Source: a virus
IMG/VR virus record: IMGVR_UViG_3300045988_138952
Location: 1-64,000 of that record
Length of the DNA stretch: 64,000 bases
Reading direction: 5' to 3' (one strand)
Made by a program: the position numbers and the translations under genes. The first letter of the stretch is position 1, and each line of letters begins with the position of its first letter. This document shows positions 1,093 through 34,152 of this stretch, one piece after another. Below the pieces are notes generated by a model. The model was not told the origin of the DNA and made no database searches. It worked only from the letters and a program-made list of their open reading frames with translations.

Positions 1093-1721
1093 CCACCGAC
1101 ACGGCAAATCAGATAATCAGCAAATATGAGAGTCTTGTAGTTCTGTGCACCTACAACATATTGCTCACGAACGACATCTGTTGCGGGCAGGTTATCGAGT
1201 GTCTGCATGCGATGAAGAGAACGCCTTATTACAAACAGGCATTCAAGCGGTATTTGAATGATGCCGATAAGGCAAGAAAGGAATACGAGCGTACTGTAAA
1301 CAGCGTTATCGGTTCAGACCAGAGCGAGTTTTTCGCCGACTGCAACGACAAGTATACGGAAGAAGTGAACAAGCACGTGGATATGTTGTATTGGCAATTC
1401 AAGCAGGTTCTTGACGATAACGGCATATCCCATTCCGCAGAGATTGCAAGGTTCGAACTTGCAAGGACATTGTGTGATTACGCCTGCATCCAGTTTGACG
1501 AAAGGATTAAAGAGCTTCGGAAGAAAGATGCACGGTTCAACGGGTTCACGTTGGAATATTTGAAGCTTTCAAATGTGGCAAGGATGATGAACCTTGCTTC
1601 CGATAGTTTGAAAATCGGGAAAACGGTCAATATGAACACAGAGCGGTGTACGGCGGCGTTTGATGTGCTGGTAAGAAAACTGTCGGATGCGGATAATATT
1701 GCCAACGCGATAAAAGTTTAG
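1089..1721 (+). CDS. hypothetical protein (210 aa)
   Basis: Track ORF, coupled to upstream ORF; no recognisable motif. Confidence 0.55.
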   Translation: MTTDTANQIISKYESLVVLCTYNILLTNDICCGQVIECLHAMKRTPYYKQAFKRYLNDADKARKEYERTVNSVIGSDQSEFFADCNDKYTEEVNKHVDMLYWQFKQVLDDNGISHSAEIARFELARTLCDYACIQFDERIKELRKKDARFNGFTLEYLKLSNVARMMNLASDSLKIGKTVNMNTERCTAAFDVLVRKLSDADNIANAIKV

Positions 1722-1809
1722 TGAGATGAAACCTATTTATAACCTTATAACTTTCCTCATGGACTGGCTCTCGGTAGAGGTTAGGGCGAATGAAGAGTGG
1801 TTCTGAATT

Positions 1810-3435
1810 ATGGAAATGAAGAAAAGCGAATTGACACACGGCTCTCTGTTTAGCGGCATTGGTGGCCCGGAAATAGCTGCCGAGATAATGGGCTGGAAAA
1901 ACGTGTTCCATTGTGAAATAAACCCGTTCGGGAGAAAAATACTTGATTATTGGTTTCCAAACAGCAAAAGTTATGAAGACATCACGAAAACAGATTTTAC
2001 AGAGTGGCGGGGAAAAATCAATGTCCTCACCGGAGGGTTCCCCTGCCAGCCTTTTTCTTGTGCCGGACAGAGAAAGGGAGCGGAAGATGACCGCTACCTC
2101 TGGCCGGAAATGCTACGAGCGATACGGGAGATTCAGCCCGATTGGGTTGTTGGTGAAAACGTTGCTGGAATCCTCTCGATGGTACAACCCGGCAGTGAAA
2201 CTGCGTTGGGACGTGAAAAATCTCTGTTCGGAGAGGTTGACCGAAAAAGAATATTGCATCGGCAGGAATACGTCGTCGAAACAGTGTGTAACGACCTTGA
2301 ACGTGAAGGATATTCCGTCCAACCGGTTGTTATTCCGGCTTGTGCCGTCGGAGCGCCGCACAGAAGGGATCGTGTCTTCTTTATTGCGAGAAGAATACAA
2401 GACAATAACAACAACATCGGGAGTGGATATACTTGTAGATTCGGAAGATTTTCCGTTTCTGAATCAATGGAAATGGAAGATAAACAATTCAGGGTATGTT
2501 TACAGAACAATCAGAGCGAAAGAAGATGGAAAGAAATGGAAGACTATCTTGATGCACAGATTGATTTGCTGTCCGAAGGAAAACGAGGAAGTGGACCATA
2601 TCAACAGATGCAAAACGGACAACAGAAAGCAAAATCTTCGGATATTAGCTCATTGGGAAAATCTTCACAATCGGAAGAAAGGTTCAGGAGTAAGGAAACC
2701 GAAGGGACGGAACAAATGGCATGCGATAATCTATGTGAACAGGAAAAGGATTCACCTCGGATTTTTCGATACAAAAGAGGAGGCGATGAATGCAAGGTTG
2801 AATGCGGAGAGAAAATTGTTGCCCACCGTGCAGATGCAGGGGTTGAAGGTATGCAACGAAAATGGGAAGAAAACATTCTATCCGGTAGAGCTGCTTCCGA
2901 CACCGACAGCCATAGATGGAGGGACGGGAAGAATCAACAAGTCACTATCGCCGAACGCAAAGGAACGGCCAACATTGGCACTTTCCGCGAAGATGGGGCT
3001 GCTTCCGACACCCATGGCGAGCGACATACACCATGCAAAGCGGGTGAAGGACTTGAAAAATGCAGGTGCAAAAACGATGGCGAGTCGAAGAAACGGAAGC
3101 AATCGTCCGAATGGACTAATGGATTTTCACGGAATGTTACCTACACCAACGGCAAGTTGCCACAATCCCGGAACGGCAAAGGACCGGAAAGACGGCAGTC
3201 CCCGGACATCAGAACTGAATCATTTGTGTGCCCGCCTGATTGGGAAAACTTCCCTACTCAATCCCCTGTTTGTAGCCGAGATGATGGGATTTCCACCAGA
3301 TTGGACGGTATTGCCTTTTCAAAGTGGCGGCAGGAATCGATAAAGGCATACGGCAATGCGATTTCACCACAGGTTATATATGAAATTTTTAGAGCAATAA
3401 ATATTGTAGAAAATGGAAGAATGGAAAACTATTGA
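1810..3435 (+). CDS. DNA (cytosine-5)-methyltransferase; only the N-terminal 200 aa and C-terminal 60 aa look like MTase in this frame
   Basis: Motif I FSGIGG, IV GGFPCQPFS, VI GENV, VIII HRRDRVFFIA (1810-2400); motif X YGNAISPQV near 3350-3380. The middle 280 aa is low-complexity E/K/R/G/S sequence. Confidence 0.8.
   Translation: MEMKKSELTHGSLFSGIGGPEIAAEIMGWKNVFHCEINPFGRKILDYWFPNSKSYEDITKTDFTEWRGKINVLTGGFPCQPFSCAGQRKGAEDDRYLWPEMLRAIREIQPDWVVGENVAGILSMVQPGSETALGREKSLFGEVDRKRILHRQEYVVETVCNDLEREGYSVQPVVIPACAVGAPHRRDRVFFIARRIQDNNNNIGSGYTCRFGRFSVSESMEMEDKQFRVCLQNNQSERRWKEMEDYLDAQIDLLSEGKRGSGPYQQMQNGQQKAKSSDISSLGKSSQSEERFRSKETEGTEQMACDNLCEQEKDSPRIFRYKRGGDECKVECGEKIVAHRADAGVEGMQRKWEENILSGRAASDTDSHRWRDGKNQQVTIAERKGTANIGTFREDGAASDTHGERHTPCKAGEGLEKCRCKNDGESKKRKQSSEWTNGFSRNVTYTNGKLPQSRNGKGPERRQSPDIRTESFVCPPDWENFPTQSPVCSRDDGISTRLDGIAFSKWRQESIKAYGNAISPQVIYEIFRAINIVENGRMENY
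1943..3343 (+). CDS. overlapping +1-frame ORF: HNH_3 + AP2 homing-endonuclease-like core, then three LLPTPxA repeats and an MGFPPDWT motif
   Basis: HNH: LMHRLI..VDHINRCKTDNRKQNLRILAHWENLHN. AP2-like: SGVRKPKGRNKWHAIIYVNRKRIHLGFFDTKEEA (core about 2423-2821, possible GTG start 2423). Then ELLPTPTAIDGG, GLLPTPMASD, GMLPTPTASC, LNPLFVAEMMGFPPDWT. True start unknown. Confidence 0.6.
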   Translation: MIIGFQTAKVMKTSRKQILQSGGEKSMSSPEGSPASLFLVPDRERERKMTATSGRKCYERYGRFSPIGLLVKTLLESSRWYNPAVKLRWDVKNLCSERLTEKEYCIGRNTSSKQCVTTLNVKDIPSNRLLFRLVPSERRTEGIVSSLLREEYKTITTTSGVDILVDSEDFPFLNQWKWKINNSGYVYRTIRAKEDGKKWKTILMHRLICCPKENEEVDHINRCKTDNRKQNLRILAHWENLHNRKKGSGVRKPKGRNKWHAIIYVNRKRIHLGFFDTKEEAMNARLNAERKLLPTVQMQGLKVCNENGKKTFYPVELLPTPTAIDGGTGRINKSLSPNAKERPTLALSAKMGLLPTPMASDIHHAKRVKDLKNAGAKTMASRRNGSNRPNGLMDFHGMLPTPTASCHNPGTAKDRKDGSPRTSELNHLCARLIGKTSLLNPLFVAEMMGFPPDWTVLPFQSGGRNR

Positions 3436-3504
3436 AGGAAATGAGGGAGATATATGGGAAGAAGAAGTACAAAATTTAGTGTTTTCAGACAATGAAGAGA
3501 AGTC

Positions 3505-3903
3505 ATGAGAAAAGCAGACAGAATAATCAGAGACAGACATTCCCGTATCCCGGACAAATACAAGAAGATTGACACTACGGTCAACGGGGATGTAGAAAGC
3601 CTTGCCGAACAACACAAGGAAGTGGAAAGAAGACTATTCCCTCTACGCCTTAACAAGACCACTGTTATTTACGTCACAAAAGACAAACAGAATGAAGCAT
3701 ATGCAGCGAAAGCACGTAAACGGATGGGGATAACAGAACCGAAGAAACCTTTTGTCGACCCACTTTCGGAAGAAAACATTACCAAGTTGTACAAGGAAGA
3801 AAAGATACCACCCCGCAGAATGGCTGAAATGTTGGATGTGAGTGTGAGGACGATATACCTAAGATTGGCTAAGTATGGACTTACAAAAGTTAAATGCAGA
3901 TAA
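3505..3903 (+). CDS. DNA-binding protein with C-terminal helix-turn-helix
   Basis: C-terminal RRMAEMLDVSVRTIYLRLAKYGL resembles sigma-70 region 4 / terminase-small type HTH. Confidence 0.5.
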   Translation: MRKADRIIRDRHSRIPDKYKKIDTTVNGDVESLAEQHKEVERRLFPLRLNKTTVIYVTKDKQNEAYAAKARKRMGITEPKKPFVDPLSEENITKLYKEEKIPPRRMAEMLDVSVRTIYLRLAKYGLTKVKCR

Positions 3904-8566: not shown

Positions 8567-8989
8567 CTACTTGCTCTTTTGAGCGGTTGCTTCTGCTGTC
8601 GGAGTCGGTGTCGATGCGGTTGTCGGACGATACCCACCGTTAACAAGGAACAGTTCGTTGGTGTACTTGTTATAGTGGATTTCGTAGATACCCGTTCCGG
8701 CAAGGTTGCCGACAGTCACCGGCTCATTGTTGTAAGCCAGCAACGGTCTTGTATCCCCATTAGTCCCTATCAGTATCGGGAGTGTAGCAGTCGTACCGGC
8801 AGGTATCGCCTGGCGGAGACTGACATAGAAACCGCCTACATAGCTTCTGTTACGGAACGCATGGTTAGGCAGCTCTAAAGTCACGTTCTCCGTGCCGACC
8901 GTTACGGCTACCGTAGGAAGGGTATTGAAATTAGCCCTTCCAATAGTAGGGAACAAGAAAGGAAATCCTGTAAAAAAGTTAGGCCACAT
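8567..8989 (-). CDS. hypothetical protein, possibly structural (140 aa)
   Basis: Track ORF; beta-rich sequence with Thr/Pro/Ala tail. Confidence 0.55.
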   Translation of the reverse strand: MWPNFFTGFPFLFPTIGRANFNTLPTVAVTVGTENVTLELPNHAFRNRSYVGGFYVSLRQAIPAGTTATLPILIGTNGDTRPLLAYNNEPVTVGNLAGTGIYEIHYNKYTNELFLVNGGYRPTTASTPTPTAEATAQKSK

Positions 8990-9012
8990 AATTACCCCCT
9001 TTCTTACCGGAA

Positions 9013-9996
9013 TTAACCCCAGTAGTTGTTACAACCACAACCGCTACGCCCATACATTGCATCACCGGCGTAAGCACCGAAAGCCGCAGCACGAGCTATC
9101 TCAGGGTTAAATGCTTGCAATTGCGGGTATGGCACTGCTACCGTAGGTGGCATCTTGCATTTTATTCCATCGACATCGGACTGCAATGCCTGCAAGCCTG
9201 CTGCCAAAGGAGCAATCTGTTGTCCTACTGAATTCAGGATAGTAGCATTCTGGTTACGTTGGGAGATTTCAGCGGTCAAAGTGGCTTTTTCTGCTGTAAG
9301 AGCCGCAATCTTGTCCTGCAATGCTTGGTTCTGCATAGCGTCCAACTTTGCAAGGATAGCATTGGTATTGGCGGTCGCACCGTCACGCAATGAAAGTGCA
9401 TTCTGATTGGCTGTGTTGACAAGCGCGTTGGTCTGATTGCACATCGCAAGCTGGTTCTCATAGCCCATTGTGGTAATGGCGTTCTGAGTCTTGCAGCAAC
9501 AATCTGCAATCTGAGTAAGAACAGCCTGATTTCCGGACTGGAATGCGTTGATGATTTGCTGGCTTGACATGCCCACCTGATTTCCTACATTGGCGATAAG
9601 TCCCTGGATGTTGCACAGGGCGCTCTGTAACTGTTGGGTAGAGCAGTTCAAAGAAGAAGCAAGCTGGTTGATGGCATTGCCATTGCCCTGAATGGCTGAC
9701 ATCAGGTATTCACGACCGACATCACCGTTAAGCTCGGCAGGCAGACCTCCACCATTGCCAAAGCGGTTGCCGAAGCCGTTACCGCCCCAACAGAACCACA
9801 AAAGGATAATCCAGATGAACCACCACGAGCCGCCCCATTGGTCTTGGCTGCCACGTCCCTGGTTCAGTAAAGCGAGAAGTCCGGGGTCTACACCCTTGCT
9901 TCCCATCAAGTTGGGCAACATAGCCATGATGTCAAATTTGCTTCCGCCACCATTTCCGTTGTTCCCGTCTTGGTTGAAGACATACGTTCTTTCCAT
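9013..9996 (-). CDS. membrane protein with Trp/Gly-rich TM segment and long Asn/Gln/Ala-rich, Cys-containing region
   Basis: WWFIWIILLWFCWGGNGFGN hydrophobic segment; CCCK and CGCNNYWG motifs. Confidence 0.6.
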   Translation of the reverse strand: MERTYVFNQDGNNGNGGGSKFDIMAMLPNLMGSKGVDPGLLALLNQGRGSQDQWGGSWWFIWIILLWFCWGGNGFGNRFGNGGGLPAELNGDVGREYLMSAIQGNGNAINQLASSLNCSTQQLQSALCNIQGLIANVGNQVGMSSQQIINAFQSGNQAVLTQIADCCCKTQNAITTMGYENQLAMCNQTNALVNTANQNALSLRDGATANTNAILAKLDAMQNQALQDKIAALTAEKATLTAEISQRNQNATILNSVGQQIAPLAAGLQALQSDVDGIKCKMPPTVAVPYPQLQAFNPEIARAAAFGAYAGDAMYGRSGCGCNNYWG

Positions 9997-32300: not shown

Positions 32301-34152
32301 CATTTCTATTATTGGTCGCGCCGATTACAAGCCCTGCGCTTTTGACTTTTTCTCTTTCTTTTGATGCAGATAACACTTTTTGGATGGCTTGATATTCCCC
32401 TTCTAAAAGAAATTGTTCAAATTTCATATTCTCAAAGAGAGAGGGATATATTTTTTGAAGGTTTAGATATGCCCTTCTTTGAGCATCAATCCCGTTTGTT
32501 TTATCGAATATTCGAGAAATATATCCTTTAGCCTTACTTTCCTCTTCTTTAATCTTCTCTATGTTTTTTGAGAACTCAATATTTAGTTTTTTTGTTTTTT
32601 CAGCAACTGTTTCAACTTTTTCTTGGAATACAGTCAATGTTGTAACTATAGCGCCTAATGTGGTTATCCAAAATACCCACGGATTGACTTTCATTGCTGA
32701 GTTAAGTGCCCATTGTGCTACTGCGGCTGCTTTGGTGACTTTGACTCCTTTGTTTAACCATGTATAATACGCTTGCATTTGACTGATTGCAAAAGAAGAC
32801 TTTTGTGCTACATTTACAGCTATCACAGCCGTTTTATAAGAGCCATAAATTCCTACAAGTCTACCAAGTATATCTGCGACAGCCTCCCAATGTTTCATTA
32901 AATCAGTAAGCAGCTCTAAACTATCTGAAAGTACACCGCTATTGCCTTCCGCAATGTCAGCCATCATGACATCCCATGCGTCCTGCAAGTTGCTCCATTT
33001 GCCAGCAAGGCTTTCTGCAAGAGCTTCCTGCATGTTGTAGAATTTGCCGCCTTCATCGGTCAGCTCCCAAAGAACATCTTTCACCATGCCGAAGCTGACC
33101 TCTTTCCGGCTGATTTTATCGAATACGTCTCCGGCGGAAGTTACCACTCCCGTAAGCTTAGTAAACCGTTTCGCCAACTCGTCCACCAACGGAATACCAG
33201 CCTCGGTAAACTGCCTCAATTCCTGCCCACGGAGAAAAGCTGCACTGCGCACCTGCCCGTACGCCAATATGATACGTCCCATATCGACACCCACACCTGC
33301 GGAAATGTCGGCAAGTCGTTTGGTCGTATCGTAAAGCTCTTCATACGGAATGCTGTATGCGGAAAGTTGCTTGGTGTATGAAGCCAGTTCTTTAAACTGA
33401 AACGGAGAGACAACCGCTAAATCCTTAATGCGGTTGAATATGGTTTCCGCCTTCATACTATCTCCAAGAATGGAGGTAAGGGCAATGTGTTGTTTCTGAA
33501 ACTCTCCGCCAATAGTATATAATCCCCTTACAAAACGCTCTATGGTGTATATGGAATACACATTGGCGATTTGATTTTTCAATTCCCTGGCTATCCGTGA
33601 TTGAGAAGATAGAGCCGTGTTTTCCTTTGTCATGGCGGCATTGTGTGTGCCGGAAGCTCTTGCAGCCTGCATCCGAGCATTGGTGAGTCTTTGTTCGGCG
33701 AGCGCTGCCCTTTCTGCCATTTTTGCCTGAATATCAAGAATGCGTTGCTGTCTTACATCGCTCGCTGTTGTGTTATATTTATATCCAGCTTTTTGTAATG
33801 CCTGTTTGACGGCATCACTGACTTTAGCCTTATCTACGACTATGTTTATTTTGTATTTTTTCTTATTTACAGCACTGGATATACTATCTCTAAGAGAAGC
33901 ATCGTCTATTTTCAGTTTTGCTTTAACTTCGGAGGGAATGTTAATTTTATTGACCCCTACATTGACTTTGAATATCTTACTTTTAAGTGCATTGTCTATC
34001 GACTCTCTAATAATTTGTCTGTCTACCTTAACTCCCAATTTAGTGTTAAGTTTGACTTGCTTTTCAACGAGTTTCTTTTTTATCTGTTCATAATCCTGCT
34101 CCGTGCAGTCTTTCAAGTGAACGCTAAAATTGAGTGAACCTAAGTCTGCCAT
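29305..34152 (-). CDS. tail tape measure protein (1615 aa)
   Basis: Length, long helical/coiled-coil composition with hydrophobic core segments, position after the chaperone pair. Confidence 0.9.
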   Translation of the reverse strand: MADLGSLNFSVHLKDCTEQDYEQIKKKLVEKQVKLNTKLGVKVDRQIIRESIDNALKSKIFKVNVGVNKINIPSEVKAKLKIDDASLRDSISSAVNKKKYKINIVVDKAKVSDAVKQALQKAGYKYNTTASDVRQQRILDIQAKMAERAALAEQRLTNARMQAARASGTHNAAMTKENTALSSQSRIARELKNQIANVYSIYTIERFVRGLYTIGGEFQKQHIALTSILGDSMKAETIFNRIKDLAVVSPFQFKELASYTKQLSAYSIPYEELYDTTKRLADISAGVGVDMGRIILAYGQVRSAAFLRGQELRQFTEAGIPLVDELAKRFTKLTGVVTSAGDVFDKISRKEVSFGMVKDVLWELTDEGGKFYNMQEALAESLAGKWSNLQDAWDVMMADIAEGNSGVLSDSLELLTDLMKHWEAVADILGRLVGIYGSYKTAVIAVNVAQKSSFAISQMQAYYTWLNKGVKVTKAAAVAQWALNSAMKVNPWVFWITTLGAIVTTLTVFQEKVETVAEKTKKLNIEFSKNIEKIKEEESKAKGYISRIFDKTNGIDAQRRAYLNLQKIYPSLFENMKFEQFLLEGEYQAIQKVLSASKEREKVKSAGLVIGATNNRNEAQRELNRLKSRREYYQSLDGYENVIESLDEDIKKQEEVLSQAQKTLNDALENYSTYKIKKDDKNSAWFKKATELYEKFGIERLKPDAEGGLQKYIENIIGANEDASSTLSEWTKKEGEWNEETRKSIDKAKLLKNATDEILKTFGRVTKETQNTKDPIAEQWEARTDLIDKAVSSYEKWRKIEGEEVASQRVKGISEFAPIFDKNGVNLDLKDPSKAYKYIQGQLDRSKEKQEDLYISLGVKIDKAGIDSAKKEVDNALKEIEKYVSQTGEKWDLYKKLFNASGNKSLSMNIAFGGEVSFKSVVDDLRNQLSKALENTGSKFSVTDVLAMKEDDVKKQFGEGVILKLYQSINEESKKMRSESLENLLGMIEDYKDYAQRIKDIERNLQKDLADIESQRGQLGEEATDRLIAQRKKKASEDAASTKFEQFKSSEDWAKTFDDLDRLSSATLSRLIKNLEEFKNTTGQSLKVNEFKELVNVLKKLRDESESRNPFKTLSDGIKEYAEATEKLKKAQKELGFIQDGGEVTTGVSETSHTETKKTDGGLSYQAKVVDKLTPKLKTLADAEKEVTDAQDEQNEASDKVQVGFGDIVDMANLLIGTLGDLGSAFDALGNDSMGDTLSAVQEVAGGLLNTAQSGATLFAGISSGNPMAIMQGATGVVSGITGIIGSIAKAHDKKLDKAIQRSQLEVKKLSNDYKNLQSVIERQLGAVTQSQSKEMIANLQKQQEEVQKQMKAEQDKKDSDASKIEDYKQQYIELGEQIKYFYEDLASEQFGIDLKGWSDQISEALVNAFANGEDAAKAFDDTVADIMRNVIKEMISLNVIKPAMNKLRDYLFGDKGIFTDSSAGGTNLTEQEATGLMQQLGSLRGTISDSKKIWDYLNAAAKKMGISLEETSASNTLSKGIQENITEETANILASYINGIRADVSVKRALLEKWGNEILPKYNVIAEQQLTQLRAIANNTLRSAQNTEANVALVQEVRDMLSIVIDRSGRKIKI

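What the first reader, a model, noticed from the sequence alone, without database searches (positions are those of the whole stretch)
1810..3435. Methyltransferase locus open in two frames for 1.4 kb, with recognisable motifs in both and an embedded HNH-AP2 endonuclease
Frame 1 (1810-3435) carries C5-MTase motifs I, IV, VI and VIII at its start and motif X (YGNAISPQV) at its end. Its middle 280 aa are low-complexity.

The +1 frame (1943-3343) has no stop for 466 codons. It carries:
- a textbook HNH_3 plus AP2 module (about 2423-2821);
- three LLPTPxA repeats;
- LNPLFVAEMMGFPPDWT, the kind of segment that precedes motif X in many phage C5-MTases.

A -1 slip on CCT TTT C (T4 at 3316-3319) would join ..MGFPPDWTVLPF to SKWRQESIKAYGNAISPQV.

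Even the part of the +1 frame that overlaps MTase motifs IV-VIII reads like ordered protein (GSPASLF..MTATSGRKCYERYGRFSPIGLLVKTLLESSRW..NRLLFRLVPSERRTEG).

Absence of stops in both frames over 1401 nt is very unlikely by chance. Options are:
- a homing endonuclease inserted in the MTase variable region and expressed by recoding or splicing;
- true dual coding (overprinting);
- two compensating indels.
Basis: partly seen in the sequence, partly recalled or inferred. Interest (0 to 1): 0.75.

Follow-up and report, generated by a model that had tools for sequence, protein, structure and literature searches.

The report
Methyltransferase encoded in two nested frames
One 1.6-kb stretch of a gut Bacteroides phage encodes a DNA cytosine methyltransferase as two proteins read in two overlapping frames, a layout conserved in many related phages and prophages, and here it also carries a mobile HNH nuclease cassette that is stop-free in both frames.

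Summary
Frame 1 (1810-3435) and the +1 frame (open 1922-3343) have no stops, while the third frame has about 36.

It is not a sequencing error, intron or intein, and frameshifting is not needed to explain it. It is a nested gene pair.
- Alpha (541 aa) carries C5-methyltransferase motifs I-VIII, a non-conserved spacer and motif X.
- Beta (ATG 1973-3343, 456 aa) carries an N-domain, LLPTP target-recognition modules and motif IX.

In 79 of 83 viral loci and 61 of 80 Bacteroidota genome loci, alpha encloses beta with no alpha-frame stops. Synonymous resampling expects 15-24 alpha-frame stops in the window's middle region and 6-8 beta-frame stops in the 5' overlap. None is seen.

In the middle only beta is under purifying selection (omega 0.25 against 0.86). 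A Paenibacillus phage has the same layout.

The HNH-AP2 segment (2388-2822, 435 nt) is a presence/absence cassette. It lies in beta's predicted linker and alpha's spacer, and it also avoids alpha-frame stops.

The closest precedent is M.EcoHK31I, whose beta is nested in alpha. Here beta also carries the recognition modules. Verdict: a new variant of a known kind, and it appears to be under-annotated.

The parts
1810..3435 (+). alpha ORF (541 aa). It reads C5-MTase motifs I-VIII, then a spacer, then motif X, and encloses beta completely.
   Evidence: ORF list. PF00145 E 2e-40 and TIGR00675 dcm E 3e-34. Colinear alignment to M.HhaI. P0268 is 98% identical with 92 member sequences.
1810..2387 (+). 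alpha catalytic N-part. Motif I FSGIGG is at 1849-1866, motif IV GGFPCQPFS at 2032-2058, motif VI GENVAG at 2152-2169, and motif VIII PHRRDRVFFIA at 2356-2388.
   Evidence: Alignment to M.HhaI residues 14-125 and 131-170. In the first 90 codons, third codon positions are the most variable (pi3 about 0.4), the usual sign of purifying selection on alpha.
1973..3343 (+). beta ORF (456 aa, +1 frame relative to alpha). It reads a disordered N-tail, an N-domain, the HNH-AP2 cassette, LLPTP recognition modules and motif IX. The frame is open from 1922. Alternative ATGs lie at 2021 and 2087.
   Evidence: P0002 is the same 456-aa protein. The ATG at this position is present in 48 of 49 distinct upstream sequences. 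The beta frame is stop-free from here in 13 diverse loci, against 20 + 69 stops expected. The beta family has 4242 hits, or 3701 clusters at 50% identity.
2087..2387 (+). beta N-domain (MTATSGRKC...LVPSERRTEGIVSSLL), overprinted on alpha motifs IV-VIII.
   Evidence: Alpha dS here is 0.30x that of alpha's 5' part, in 96% of 670 pairs and 25 of 27 non-overlapping pairs. The AF2 model shows helices 32-51 and 56-66 and four strands 76-126 at pLDDT 65-79. It has no Pfam or PDB relative.
2388..2822 (+). HNH-AP2 cassette, 435 nt (145 codons), in-frame in both alpha and beta. TTGC occurs at both junctions, so the boundary is ambiguous by 4 nt.
   Evidence: Absent from L003, whose flanks are 97.9% and 99.8% identical. 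GC is 40% against 49% in the flanks. phrog_99 HNH endonuclease E 1e-29. At most 42% identity over 85-97% of its length to free-standing phage HNH/homing endonucleases. It has 0 alpha-frame stops, whereas four free-standing homologues have 6-36 in that frame. T-ending-codon avoidance is 0 of 58 against 30 of 85, P = 2e-8. It occurs in 19 loci, as 4 protein variants, in 7 module backgrounds.
2388..3241 (+). alpha spacer: a frame-1 reading that is not conserved as protein but is kept free of stops. It includes the cassette.
   Evidence: In the middle region omega is 0.86 for alpha and 0.25 for beta, in 17 of 18 ungapped pairs. Beta third positions are the most variable. Stop avoidance is shown.
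2823..3241 (+). beta target-recognition region with three LLPTPxA modules, at about 2889-2912, 2996-3019 and 3133-3156.
   Evidence: Translation. phrog_1008 DNA methyltransferase E 1e-19 for the HNH-less beta. Module number and order vary between alleles.
3242..3316 (+). beta motif IX (GKTSLLNPLFVAEMMGFPPDWTVLP). The beta stop is at 3341-3343.
   Evidence: Aligns to M.HhaI 268-293, GKTRKLHPRECARVMGYPDSYKVHP. L284, P286, F288, V289, M292, M293, F295, P296 and W299 are invariant in the beta alignment.
3319..3435 (+). alpha C-terminal part with motif X (SKWRQESIKAYGNAISPQV; GNA at 3352-3360) and the stop at 3433-3435.
   Evidence: Aligns to M.HhaI 294-314. Nearly invariant in the alpha alignment.

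Best explanation
The locus is a nested pair of genes that together encode one DNA (cytosine-5) methyltransferase as two polypeptides.

The two products:
- Alpha is read in frame 1 from 1810 to 3435. It supplies the catalytic large domain: motifs I-VIII at its N-terminus and motif X at its C-terminus. These are joined by a long hydrophilic spacer whose sequence is free to drift, but which must stay free of stop codons so that ribosomes reach motif X.
- Beta starts independently at an internal ATG (most likely 1973) in the +1 frame and ends at 3343. It supplies what alpha lacks: the DNA-recognition part (shuffled LLPTPxAxD modules) and motif IX. It also has a roughly 90-residue N-domain overprinted on alpha's motif IV-VIII codons.
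- By analogy with M.EcoHK31I beta, this N-domain probably docks beta onto alpha.

Shown: both frames are kept open by selection. Beta is under purifying selection along its whole length. Alpha is under purifying selection only at its two ends. The pieces are colinear with M.HhaI.

Inferred: independent initiation of beta, alpha-beta assembly, and methylation activity.

The HNH-AP2 cassette:
- In this window a 435-nt HNH-AP2 homing-endonuclease-like cassette has been inserted exactly at the motif VIII / recognition-region boundary.
- That position is alpha's spacer and the predicted flexible linker of beta.
- It has no start or stop codon of its own, and it is codon-adapted to be stop-free in alpha's frame as well. 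It is therefore carried as an internal domain of beta and as extra spacer in alpha.
- Its near-identity across several different beta backgrounds, together with HNH-less sister alleles, indicates recent horizontal spread. Homing is an inference.
For: 1. Dual openness is a family trait.
- In 79 of 83 loci (80 IMG/VR contigs, two isolates and the window) there are no alpha-frame stops inside beta. The totals are 12 alpha-frame stops against 1898 third-frame stops over 28,858 codons.
- In 61 of 80 GTDB Bacteroidota genome loci the same holds, down to 29% beta identity (35 against 1412 stops).
- Paenibacillus phage BN12 has a 356-aa alpha (motifs I-VIII and X) with a nested 234-aa +1-frame beta carrying motif IX. 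Both are deposited as CDSs.

2. Stop avoidance goes beyond composition.
- For the alpha frame in the middle region: window 0 of 99 against 56 of 198 (P = 7e-12), and resampling expects 15-24 stops.
- For the beta frame in the 5' overlap: 0 observed against 6.3-7.8 expected in each of 12 diverse loci. Alpha's first ~50 codons (upstream of the beta ATG) carry the expected 2-5 beta-frame stops.

3. Selection by frame.
- Alpha dS drops to 0.30x from the codon where beta's conserved part begins.
- In the middle, omega is 0.25 for beta and 0.86 for alpha.

4. A beta ATG is conserved in 48 of 49 upstream variants.

5. Colinearity with M.HhaI: alpha matches motifs I-VI and VIII, beta matches motif IX, and alpha matches motif X.

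6. Precedent: M.EcoHK31I beta is encoded entirely within alpha in another frame, both chains are needed for activity, and beta's N-terminus mediates association (PMC2836561; PMC3404938).

7. The cassette. The insertion site lies in the pLDDT<50 linker (residues 133-143) of the beta model.
Against: - There is no expression data. Nothing here shows that beta is initiated at an internal ATG or that the two chains associate.
- The beta AF2 model is only moderate (mean pLDDT 69, pTM 0.34). It has no Foldseek match to the small domain of solved C5-MTases, so calling beta the small domain rests on the motif IX alignment and on position.
- The motif IX alignment to M.HhaI is weak on its own (8 bits, conditional E 5e-5). 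It was obtained on an artificial spliced query.
- The alpha model failed (pLDDT 29), so disorder of the spacer is inferred from composition and lack of conservation.
- The lower dS in the 5' overlap is accompanied by a lower dN (0.57x), so part of it could reflect mosaic ancestry.
- Many loci are close relatives, so pooled P values overstate independence.
- 19 of 80 genome copies have a broken alpha with an intact beta.
Confidence: 0.8

Rival explanations
1. A single-chain methyltransferase is made by two programmed frameshifts. The ribosome shifts +1 from frame 1 to the +1 frame just after motif VIII (about 2385-2420), and shifts -1 back at the T4 run (3316-3319) before motif X.
For: The spliced product is colinear with M.HhaI, with near-canonical motif IX to motif X spacing. 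The functional parts of the two frames abut at both junctions. A T4 run lies at the second junction.
Against: - Neither junction has a canonical slippery heptamer in the correct frame, and neither is followed by a zero-frame stop.
- Frame 1 is held stop-free for 150-340 codons after the supposed exit point. A frameshifting gene has no need for that.
- The +1 frame is held stop-free, with a conserved ATG, for 139 codons before the supposed entry point.
- In the searchable library, the frameshifting review mentions no DNA methyltransferase case.
Confidence: 0.08
2. This is a sequencing or assembly artefact. The true gene is a single frame, and two compensating indels in this assembly shift the middle part.
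For: Single-indel alpha::beta chimeras do exist in databases (P0009, P0012, P0024, P0028). This shows that indels occur in this gene.
Against: The same two-frame layout occurs in two cultured phages, 79 IMG/VR contigs, 61 genome loci and Paenibacillus phages. Both frames show specific stop avoidance.
Confidence: 0.01
3. Only alpha is a real protein. The +1 frame is an untranslated relic of an ancestral frame, kept open by chance or by composition.
For: Annotation pipelines usually call alpha only, as 'DNA methyltransferase'. Alpha alone carries the catalytic motifs.
Against: - Alpha lacks motif IX and any conserved recognition region. Its middle evolves with omega of about 0.86, while the +1 frame there has omega 0.25.
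- The beta frame shows stop avoidance and a conserved ATG.
- Beta is conserved down to 29% identity across Bacteroidota and into Firmicutes phages.
Confidence: 0.03
4. The two frames result from a homing endonuclease gene, inside an intron or intein, that interrupts a normal methyltransferase gene and is removed by splicing.
For: An HNH-AP2 cassette with presence/absence polymorphism really is present.
Against: Alleles without the cassette have the same two frames. The cassette is 435 nt, in-frame in both readings, and is almost entirely ORF. Rfam finds no intron. No Hint/intein family is matched.
Confidence: 0.02

Closest known systems
M.EcoHK31I (E. coli HK31; Lee, Kam and Shaw 1995, as summarised in PMC2836561 and PMC3404938)
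   Same: - It is a C5-MTase made of two polypeptides.
- Beta is encoded entirely inside alpha in another reading frame.
[quoted passage not shown]
- Beta's N-terminal part is needed for association with alpha.
   Different: - As described in the literature, the EcoHK31I alpha also holds the target-recognition domain and beta holds motif IX only. Here the recognition modules are in beta, and alpha's middle is a non-conserved spacer.
- Beta here is 230-456 aa. From my memory, M.EcoHK31I beta is about 176 aa and alpha about 309 aa.
- The context here is phage or prophage, without an adjacent restriction gene seen in the compared loci.
- An HNH cassette is present in this allele.
M.AquI alpha/beta (Karreman and de Waard 1990; PMC3404938)
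   Same: It is a natural two-subunit C5-MTase split within the variable region, encoded by overlapping ORFs.
   Different: [quoted passage not shown] Here motif X returns to alpha, and beta is fully nested over more than 1.3 kb.
Phage lambda Rz/Rz1 spanin genes (from my own knowledge)
   Same: One phage gene is embedded entirely in the +1 frame of another, and the two products form one functional complex.
   Different: The function is unrelated, and the overlap is about 180 nt rather than about 1.4 kb. Neither partner is a split version of a protein that is normally a single chain.
Free-standing HNH-AP2 homing endonucleases of phages (for example crAss-like phage 'homing endonuclease' QOR58117, Bacillus phage 268TH002 gp47)
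   Same: Same domain pair and length, with 34-42% identity over 85-97% of the cassette. It shows presence/absence polymorphism at a conserved site in a DNA-metabolism gene.
   Different: The cassette has no start or stop codon of its own. It is fused in-frame inside beta and is free of stops in the overlapping alpha frame, whereas the free-standing homologues have 6-36 stops in that frame.
Multispecific phage C5-MTases of the SPbeta / phi3T / SPR group (from my own knowledge)
   Same: These are phage C5-MTases whose variable region holds several tandem recognition modules that can be shuffled.
   Different: They are single polypeptides in one frame. Homology of the modules was not tested.

Membership tests
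DNA (cytosine-5) methyltransferase (PF00145 / TIGR00675 dcm) | Motifs I (FxGxG), IV (PCQ), VI (ENV) and VIII (RxR) in order. | tested here: met
   The alpha frame matches PF00145 at E 2e-40 and TIGR00675 at E 3e-34 (above cut-off). It aligns to M.HhaI residues 14-125 and 131-170.
DNA (cytosine-5) methyltransferase (PF00145 / TIGR00675 dcm) | Variable recognition region, motif IX and motif X on the same polypeptide. | tested here: not met
   Motif X is in alpha. Motif IX and the conserved variable region are in the +1 frame (beta).
M.EcoHK31I-type nested two-chain C5-MTase | The beta ORF lies entirely within the alpha ORF in a different frame on the same strand. | tested here: met
   Beta at 1973-3343 lies inside alpha at 1810-3435, in the +1 frame. 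This is conserved in 79 of 83 and 61 of 80 loci.
M.EcoHK31I-type nested two-chain C5-MTase | [quoted passage not shown] | tested here: met
   Colinear alignment to M.HhaI.
M.EcoHK31I-type nested two-chain C5-MTase | Alpha also carries the target-recognition domain, as the literature describes (PMC2836561). | tested here: not met
   Alpha's middle has omega of about 0.86 and is low-complexity. The conserved LLPTP modules (omega 0.25, phrog_1008) are in beta.
M.EcoHK31I-type nested two-chain C5-MTase | Both polypeptides are required for methylation, and beta is initiated independently. | not testable with these tools
   Only indirect support is available: a conserved beta ATG and frame-specific stop avoidance.
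M.EcoHK31I-type nested two-chain C5-MTase | Sequence homology to M.EcoHK31I alpha and beta. | not tested
The original paper (PMC306636) is not held. There was no DNA match in E. coli genomes.
M.AquI-type split C5-MTase | Beta carries both motif IX and motif X, and the ORFs overlap only at their ends. | tested here: not met
   Motif X is in alpha, and beta is fully nested.
HNH-AP2 homing endonuclease | An HNH nuclease motif plus an AP2 DNA-binding domain. | tested here: met
   phrog_99 E 1e-29. Pfam HNH_3 E 5e-4 and AP2 E 2e-3 are both below gathering score. The sequences DHINRCKTDNRKQNLR...ENLHN and KWHAIIYVNRKRIHLGFFDTKEEA are present.
HNH-AP2 homing endonuclease | Presence/absence polymorphism at one site in otherwise near-identical hosts. 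| tested here: met
   L003 lacks it, with 97.9% and 99.8% identical flanks. It occurs at the same site in 7 backgrounds.
HNH-AP2 homing endonuclease | A free-standing gene with its own start and stop, or carried in an intron or intein. | tested here: not met
   It has no stop and reads on into beta's modules. There is no Rfam intron and no intein domain.
HNH-AP2 homing endonuclease | Cleaves the empty allele and is copied in by repair. | not testable with these tools
   Inference only.
Programmed ribosomal frameshifting | A slippery site in the correct frame, with a zero-frame stop or stimulatory element shortly after. | tested here: not met
   There is no X XXY YYZ heptamer in the beta frame at 3310-3322, and no zero-frame stop after either junction. 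The zero frame stays open for hundreds of codons.

The most novel reading that the evidence does not exclude
A large, cross-phylum family of phage and prophage cytosine methyltransferases (thousands of sequence clusters in Bacteroidota and Firmicutes phages) may be built as two structural halves written in two reading frames of the same 0.7-1.4 kb of DNA.
- One half has an N-domain created by overprinting on the catalytic motifs.
- The other half has a spacer whose only constraint is to contain no stop codon.
- Within the family, a homing HNH endonuclease has evolved to be open in both frames, so it can sit inside the overlap without inactivating either gene.

As a family-wide phenomenon this seems to be undescribed. 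Databases annotate only one frame or call beta 'hypothetical'.
Probability: 0.5. Interest if true: 0.8.

Novelty: new variant of a known kind. Interest (0 to 1): 0.68.

Why it matters
1. Long same-strand overlaps that are demonstrably under selection in both frames are rare in double-stranded DNA phages and bacteria. This one spans about 1.4 kb, replicates in more than 140 loci, and gives clean frame-specific signatures, so it is a good natural test case for methods that detect overlapping genes.

2. Gene callers keep only one of the two ORFs. Beta, which probably determines sequence specificity, is missing from or labelled 'hypothetical' in the annotations checked. This affects methylome and restriction-evasion predictions for abundant gut phages. 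The relative BS-TP4 was detected in 31% of Chinese viromes (PMC12694917).

3. It suggests that the M.EcoHK31I curiosity of 1995 may be one member of a widespread design: the catalytic and recognition domains are separate chains, so recognition modules can be shuffled while the catalytic chain only needs an open spacer.

4. The cassette shows a selfish endonuclease adapting its codon choice to an overlapping host frame.

Tried and rejected
- AlphaFold2 of alpha with a 23-sequence alignment failed (mean pLDDT 29). It gives no information on the spacer or on the large-domain fold.
- Foldseek of the beta model against the PDB gave nothing below E = 1.
- A beta-family profile against PDB sequences gave only a spurious katanin match.
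- Pfam on 145 beta-family members gave PF00145 in only 7, probably alpha::beta chimeras, so Pfam does not see motif IX in beta. NCBIfam finds nothing for beta.
- Rfam at E <= 1 over 1500-3800 gave no hit, so there is no group I or II intron.
- A DNA search of the 5' overlap against 5,426 E. coli genomes found no match. The link to M.EcoHK31I could therefore not be tested.
- The original M.EcoHK31I paper is not held, and the later paper has no supplementary sequences.
- The 145-sequence alignment was too diverse for the search for related loci, so the 15-sequence alignment was used instead.
- Literature searches for a description of nested beta genes in phage C5-MTases found none. The Paenibacillus phage papers list two 'DNA-cytosine methyltransferase' genes without comment.
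- Considered and rejected: phase variation (no simple-sequence repeats at the junctions), transcriptional slippage (no long homopolymers), an intein (no Hint domain), and stop-codon reassignment (irrelevant to reading frames).
Full report
THE OBSERVATION

The window contains an ATG-initiated ORF at 1810-3435 (541 aa). A second ORF in the +1 frame is listed from a TTG at 1943 to 3343 (466 codons). Counting stops directly, frame 1 is open over 1807-3432 and the +1 frame over 1922-3340, while the third frame has about 36 stops over the same span.

Frame 1 matches PF00145 (E 2e-40), but only over residues 11-124. It also matches TIGR00675. The +1 frame gives weak Pfam HNH_3 and AP2 matches and a strong PHROG HNH-endonuclease match (phrog_99, E 1e-29).

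NOT AN ARTEFACT, AND NOT CAUSED BY THE HNH SEGMENT

Two cultured Bacteroides phages have homologous genes annotated as single 'DNA methyltransferase' CDSs: BS-TP4 (PQ571277) and BKO1-TP3 (PQ571269). Both lack the HNH segment, yet both carry a long nested +1-frame ORF, of 372 and 320 aa.

Protein searches gave:
- more than 8000 alpha-type relatives, including a 98%-identical 541-aa cluster with 92 members;
- 4242 beta-type relatives;
- 3701 beta clusters at 50% identity. Most are stand-alone 200-450-aa ORFs with no Pfam domain and no name.

I fetched 80 IMG/VR loci and 80 GTDB genome loci and asked whether the frame one base upstream of beta (the alpha frame) is open across beta.
- Viral set: 79 of 83 loci have no alpha-frame stop inside beta. 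Totals are 12 alpha-frame stops against 1898 third-frame stops over 28,858 codons.
- Genome set: 61 of 80 loci (Bacteroides, Phocaeicola, Prevotella, Segatella, Parabacteroides, Alistipes, Sphingobacterium and others) behave the same way, down to 29% beta identity. Totals are 35 against 1412 stops.
- The remaining 19 are decayed copies in which alpha is 5'-truncated or interrupted while beta is intact.

Paenibacillus larvae phages (Firmicutes) have the same layout. In phage BN12 a 356-aa alpha with motifs I-VIII and X encloses a 234-aa +1-frame beta ending in LNPDWVECLMGFPIGWT. Both are deposited as 'DNA-cytosine methyltransferase'. An SD-like GGGAGGTG lies 13 nt before the beta ATG.

BOTH FRAMES ARE KEPT OPEN BY SELECTION

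An alpha-frame stop arises when a beta codon ending in T is followed by a beta codon starting with AA, AG or GA.

In the window's middle region (298 beta codons) this never happens: 0 of 99, although 56 of 198 other codons end in T (P = 7e-12). Keeping the beta protein and resampling synonymous codons gives 24 alpha-frame stops on average. Permuting the gene's own codons gives 15. Zero stops never occurred in 20,000 trials. Across 51 distinct middle regions the count is 0 of 2663 against 1734 of 6407. Those loci were chosen for having no stop, so this figure restates the openness against a proper null rather than adding independent evidence.

The reciprocal test concerns the 139 alpha codons between the conserved beta ATG and motif VIII. 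Synonymous resampling of alpha expects 6.3-7.8 beta-frame stops, and none is seen in any of 12 loci that share less than 93% DNA identity (P(0) <= 3e-4 each). Alpha's first ~50 codons, upstream of the beta ATG, carry 2-5 beta-frame stops, as expected. Even the 38 codons between ATG 1973 and ATG 2087 are stop-free in all 13 loci, against 20 stops expected in total.

WHICH FRAME IS UNDER PROTEIN-LEVEL SELECTION, AND WHERE

- Alpha's first 90 codons: third positions are the most variable (pi about 0.4, against 0.1-0.2 at positions 1 and 2).
- From codon ~91, where beta reads MTATSG, alpha's third-position diversity halves. By the Nei-Gojobori method, alpha dS in the overlap is 0.30x that of the 5' part. 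This holds in 96% of 670 pairs and in 25 of 27 non-overlapping pairs. dN falls less, to 0.57x.
- After motif VIII the pattern inverts. Beta third positions are the most variable (0.4-0.6) and alpha's third positions are among the least variable. In 18 ungapped pairs omega is 0.25 for beta and 0.86 for alpha, with beta lower in 17 of 18.
- After the beta stop, alpha is again conserved (KWRQESIKAYGNAxxPQV).

Alpha is therefore a protein at its two ends, and an open but otherwise unconstrained spacer in between. Beta is a protein throughout.

WHAT THE PIECES ARE

I made an artificial join: alpha 1-193, plus beta from PTVQ to VLPF, plus alpha from SKWRQ. It aligns to M.HhaI in three colinear blocks:
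- motifs I-VI (HhaI residues 14-125);
- motif VIII (residues 131-170);
- a single block in which beta GKTSLLNPLFVAEMMGFPPDWTVLP matches HhaI 268-293 (motif IX) and alpha SKWRQESIKAYGNAISPQV matches motif X.

The last block is weak on its own (conditional E 5e-5), but it is colinear and correctly spaced.

From my own recollection of the M.HhaI structure, the large domain is residues 1-193 plus 304-327, and the small domain with the hinge lies between them. On that basis alpha corresponds to the large domain and beta to the recognition (small) domain with motif IX.

Beta also has parts with no counterpart in single-chain enzymes. The AF2 model of the HNH-less beta was built from 145 sequences and has mean pLDDT 69. 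It shows:
- a tail of about 38 residues with pLDDT below 50;
- an N-domain of about 90 residues (helices 32-51 and 56-66, four strands 76-126, pLDDT 65-79), encoded on top of alpha motifs IV-VIII;
- a linker at residues 133-143 with pLDDT below 50;
- a high-confidence C-terminal region around motif IX (pLDDT 87-90).

This model has no Foldseek match in the PDB.

The best-conserved beta start is the ATG at 1973, present in 48 of 49 distinct upstream sequences. The ATGs at 2021 and 2087 are present in 40 and 36 of 49.

MECHANISM

The simplest model that accounts for all these constraints is two polypeptides from one mRNA region.
- Alpha is translated from 1810 through the spacer to motif X.
- Beta is initiated internally.
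- The two assemble into one enzyme.

This is the architecture shown experimentally for M.EcoHK31I. [quoted passage not shown] Removing the beta start codons abolishes activity, and the N-terminal 40-70 residues of beta govern association (PMC2836561; PMC3404938). M.AquI is another natural two-chain C5-MTase.

It does not explain why frame 1 is protected from stops for hundreds of codons after the supposed exit. Nor does it explain why the +1 frame is protected, with a conserved ATG, for 139 codons before the supposed entry. Neither junction has a canonical slippery heptamer or a following zero-frame stop. I give it about 8%.

An ancient pair of compensating frameshifts in a single-chain ancestor is a plausible origin of the layout. 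That is an inference.

THE HNH-AP2 CASSETTE

Alignment with locus L003 defines a 435-nt insertion at 2388-2822. TTGC occurs at both junctions. The flanks are 97.9% and 99.8% identical to L003, and GC is 40% against 49% in the flanks.

It encodes a complete HNH-AP2 endonuclease body, with 34-42% identity over 85-97% of its length to free-standing phage HNH/homing endonucleases. It has no start or stop codon of its own. It is in-frame in beta (SSLL|REEY...ERKLL|PTVQ) and in alpha (FFIA|RRIQ...KIVA|HRAD).

It falls in beta's predicted disordered linker and at the start of alpha's spacer.

The cassette itself avoids alpha-frame stops: 0 of 58 against 30 of 85, P = 2e-8. Four free-standing homologues have 6-36 stops in the equivalent frame, and the cassette has 12 stops in the third frame.

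It occurs in 19 loci as 4 protein variants differing by 1-3 residues, at the same site, in 7 different module backgrounds. Rfam finds no intron.

I read it as a homing-type element that has adapted to life inside a dual-coding region. Cleavage, homing and whether beta still works with it are untested.

NOVELTY

The core idea, a beta chain nested in alpha, has been known since 1995 for one enzyme, and a few GenBank phage records already list the nested CDS. The following appear to be new, as far as the searchable literature shows:
- the scale, with thousands of clusters across two phyla;
- the domain-level division, with recognition modules plus motif IX in beta and a spacer in alpha;
- the overprinted N-domain of beta;
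- the quantitative evidence for codon-level stop avoidance in both frames;
- the endonuclease cassette that is open in both frames.

I could not test whether M.EcoHK31I itself belongs to this family. I therefore class the finding as a new variant of a known kind, with interest 0.68.

LIMITS

There is no expression or biochemical evidence. Many loci are closely related, so pooled statistics are descriptive. The alpha structure prediction failed. Calling beta the small domain rests on a weak motif alignment and on position.

Noticed in passing
L085:1501-3189 (ENA ERZ24911594 NODE_82): A 366-nt tandem duplication lies inside the alpha/beta overlap (alpha YWFPNS...EREGY is repeated). Both frames stay open, giving a 562-aa alpha and a 494-codon beta. 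It could be a real duplication or an assembly artefact.
   Followed up: partly
Proteins P0009, P0010, P0012, P0024, P0028, P0080; loci L055 and L056: These are alpha-N::beta chimeric ORFs created by single 1-nt deletions or 2-nt insertions at different positions: after RGKINVL, after PFSC, after GAEDN, and after VVIPA. They are either natural frameshift mutants fusing the two chains or assembly errors. Two come from NCBI genome records.
   Followed up: partly
window 2823-3241, and beta of L001, L013, L036, L049, L063, L075: The recognition region of beta is a mosaic of 3-6 'LLPTPxAxD'-type modules. They are combined differently in otherwise near-identical backbones, which suggests modular recombination and possibly multi-specificity.
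   Followed up: partly
L111-L117, L119, L121, L131-L135, L141-L144 (for example Bacteroides xylanisolvens XB1A, B. hominis, B. faecalis chromosomes): In these chromosomal copies alpha has lost motifs I-IV or is interrupted by 1-2 stops, while beta stays intact at about 300-350 aa. They may be decaying elements, or beta may have a use without a cis alpha.
   Followed up: partly
window 2030-2390 compared with Paenibacillus larvae phages (for example MG727695 at 33713-33975): The DNA of the doubly coding 5' overlap is about 77% identical between a Bacteroides phage and Firmicutes phages. This is unusually high across phyla and fits constraint on two frames.
   Followed up: no
window 2068-2089: Alpha's conserved RKGAEDD codons (AGA AAG GGA GCG GAA GAT GAC) contain a Shine-Dalgarno-like AAGGGAG, followed 8 nt later by ATG 2087 in the beta frame. 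ATG 1973 arises in the same way from alpha's Y-E codons (TAT GAA) and is preceded by an A-rich stretch.
   Followed up: no
window 3500-25000: The rest of the window has only patchy nucleotide similarity to sequenced phages (at most 15% coverage). It looks like an uncultured Bacteroides-type gut phage or prophage that shares only the methyltransferase module with BS-TP4.
   Followed up: no
L084 (Porphyromonas phage phage018a_AFR5B1, BK068099 at 8776-9390): A 'hypothetical protein' CDS there corresponds to the beta N-domain region only (48% identity over beta residues 7-140). A separate short 'methyltransferase' CDS lies upstream. This may be a rearranged or degraded version of the nested pair.
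   Followed up: no
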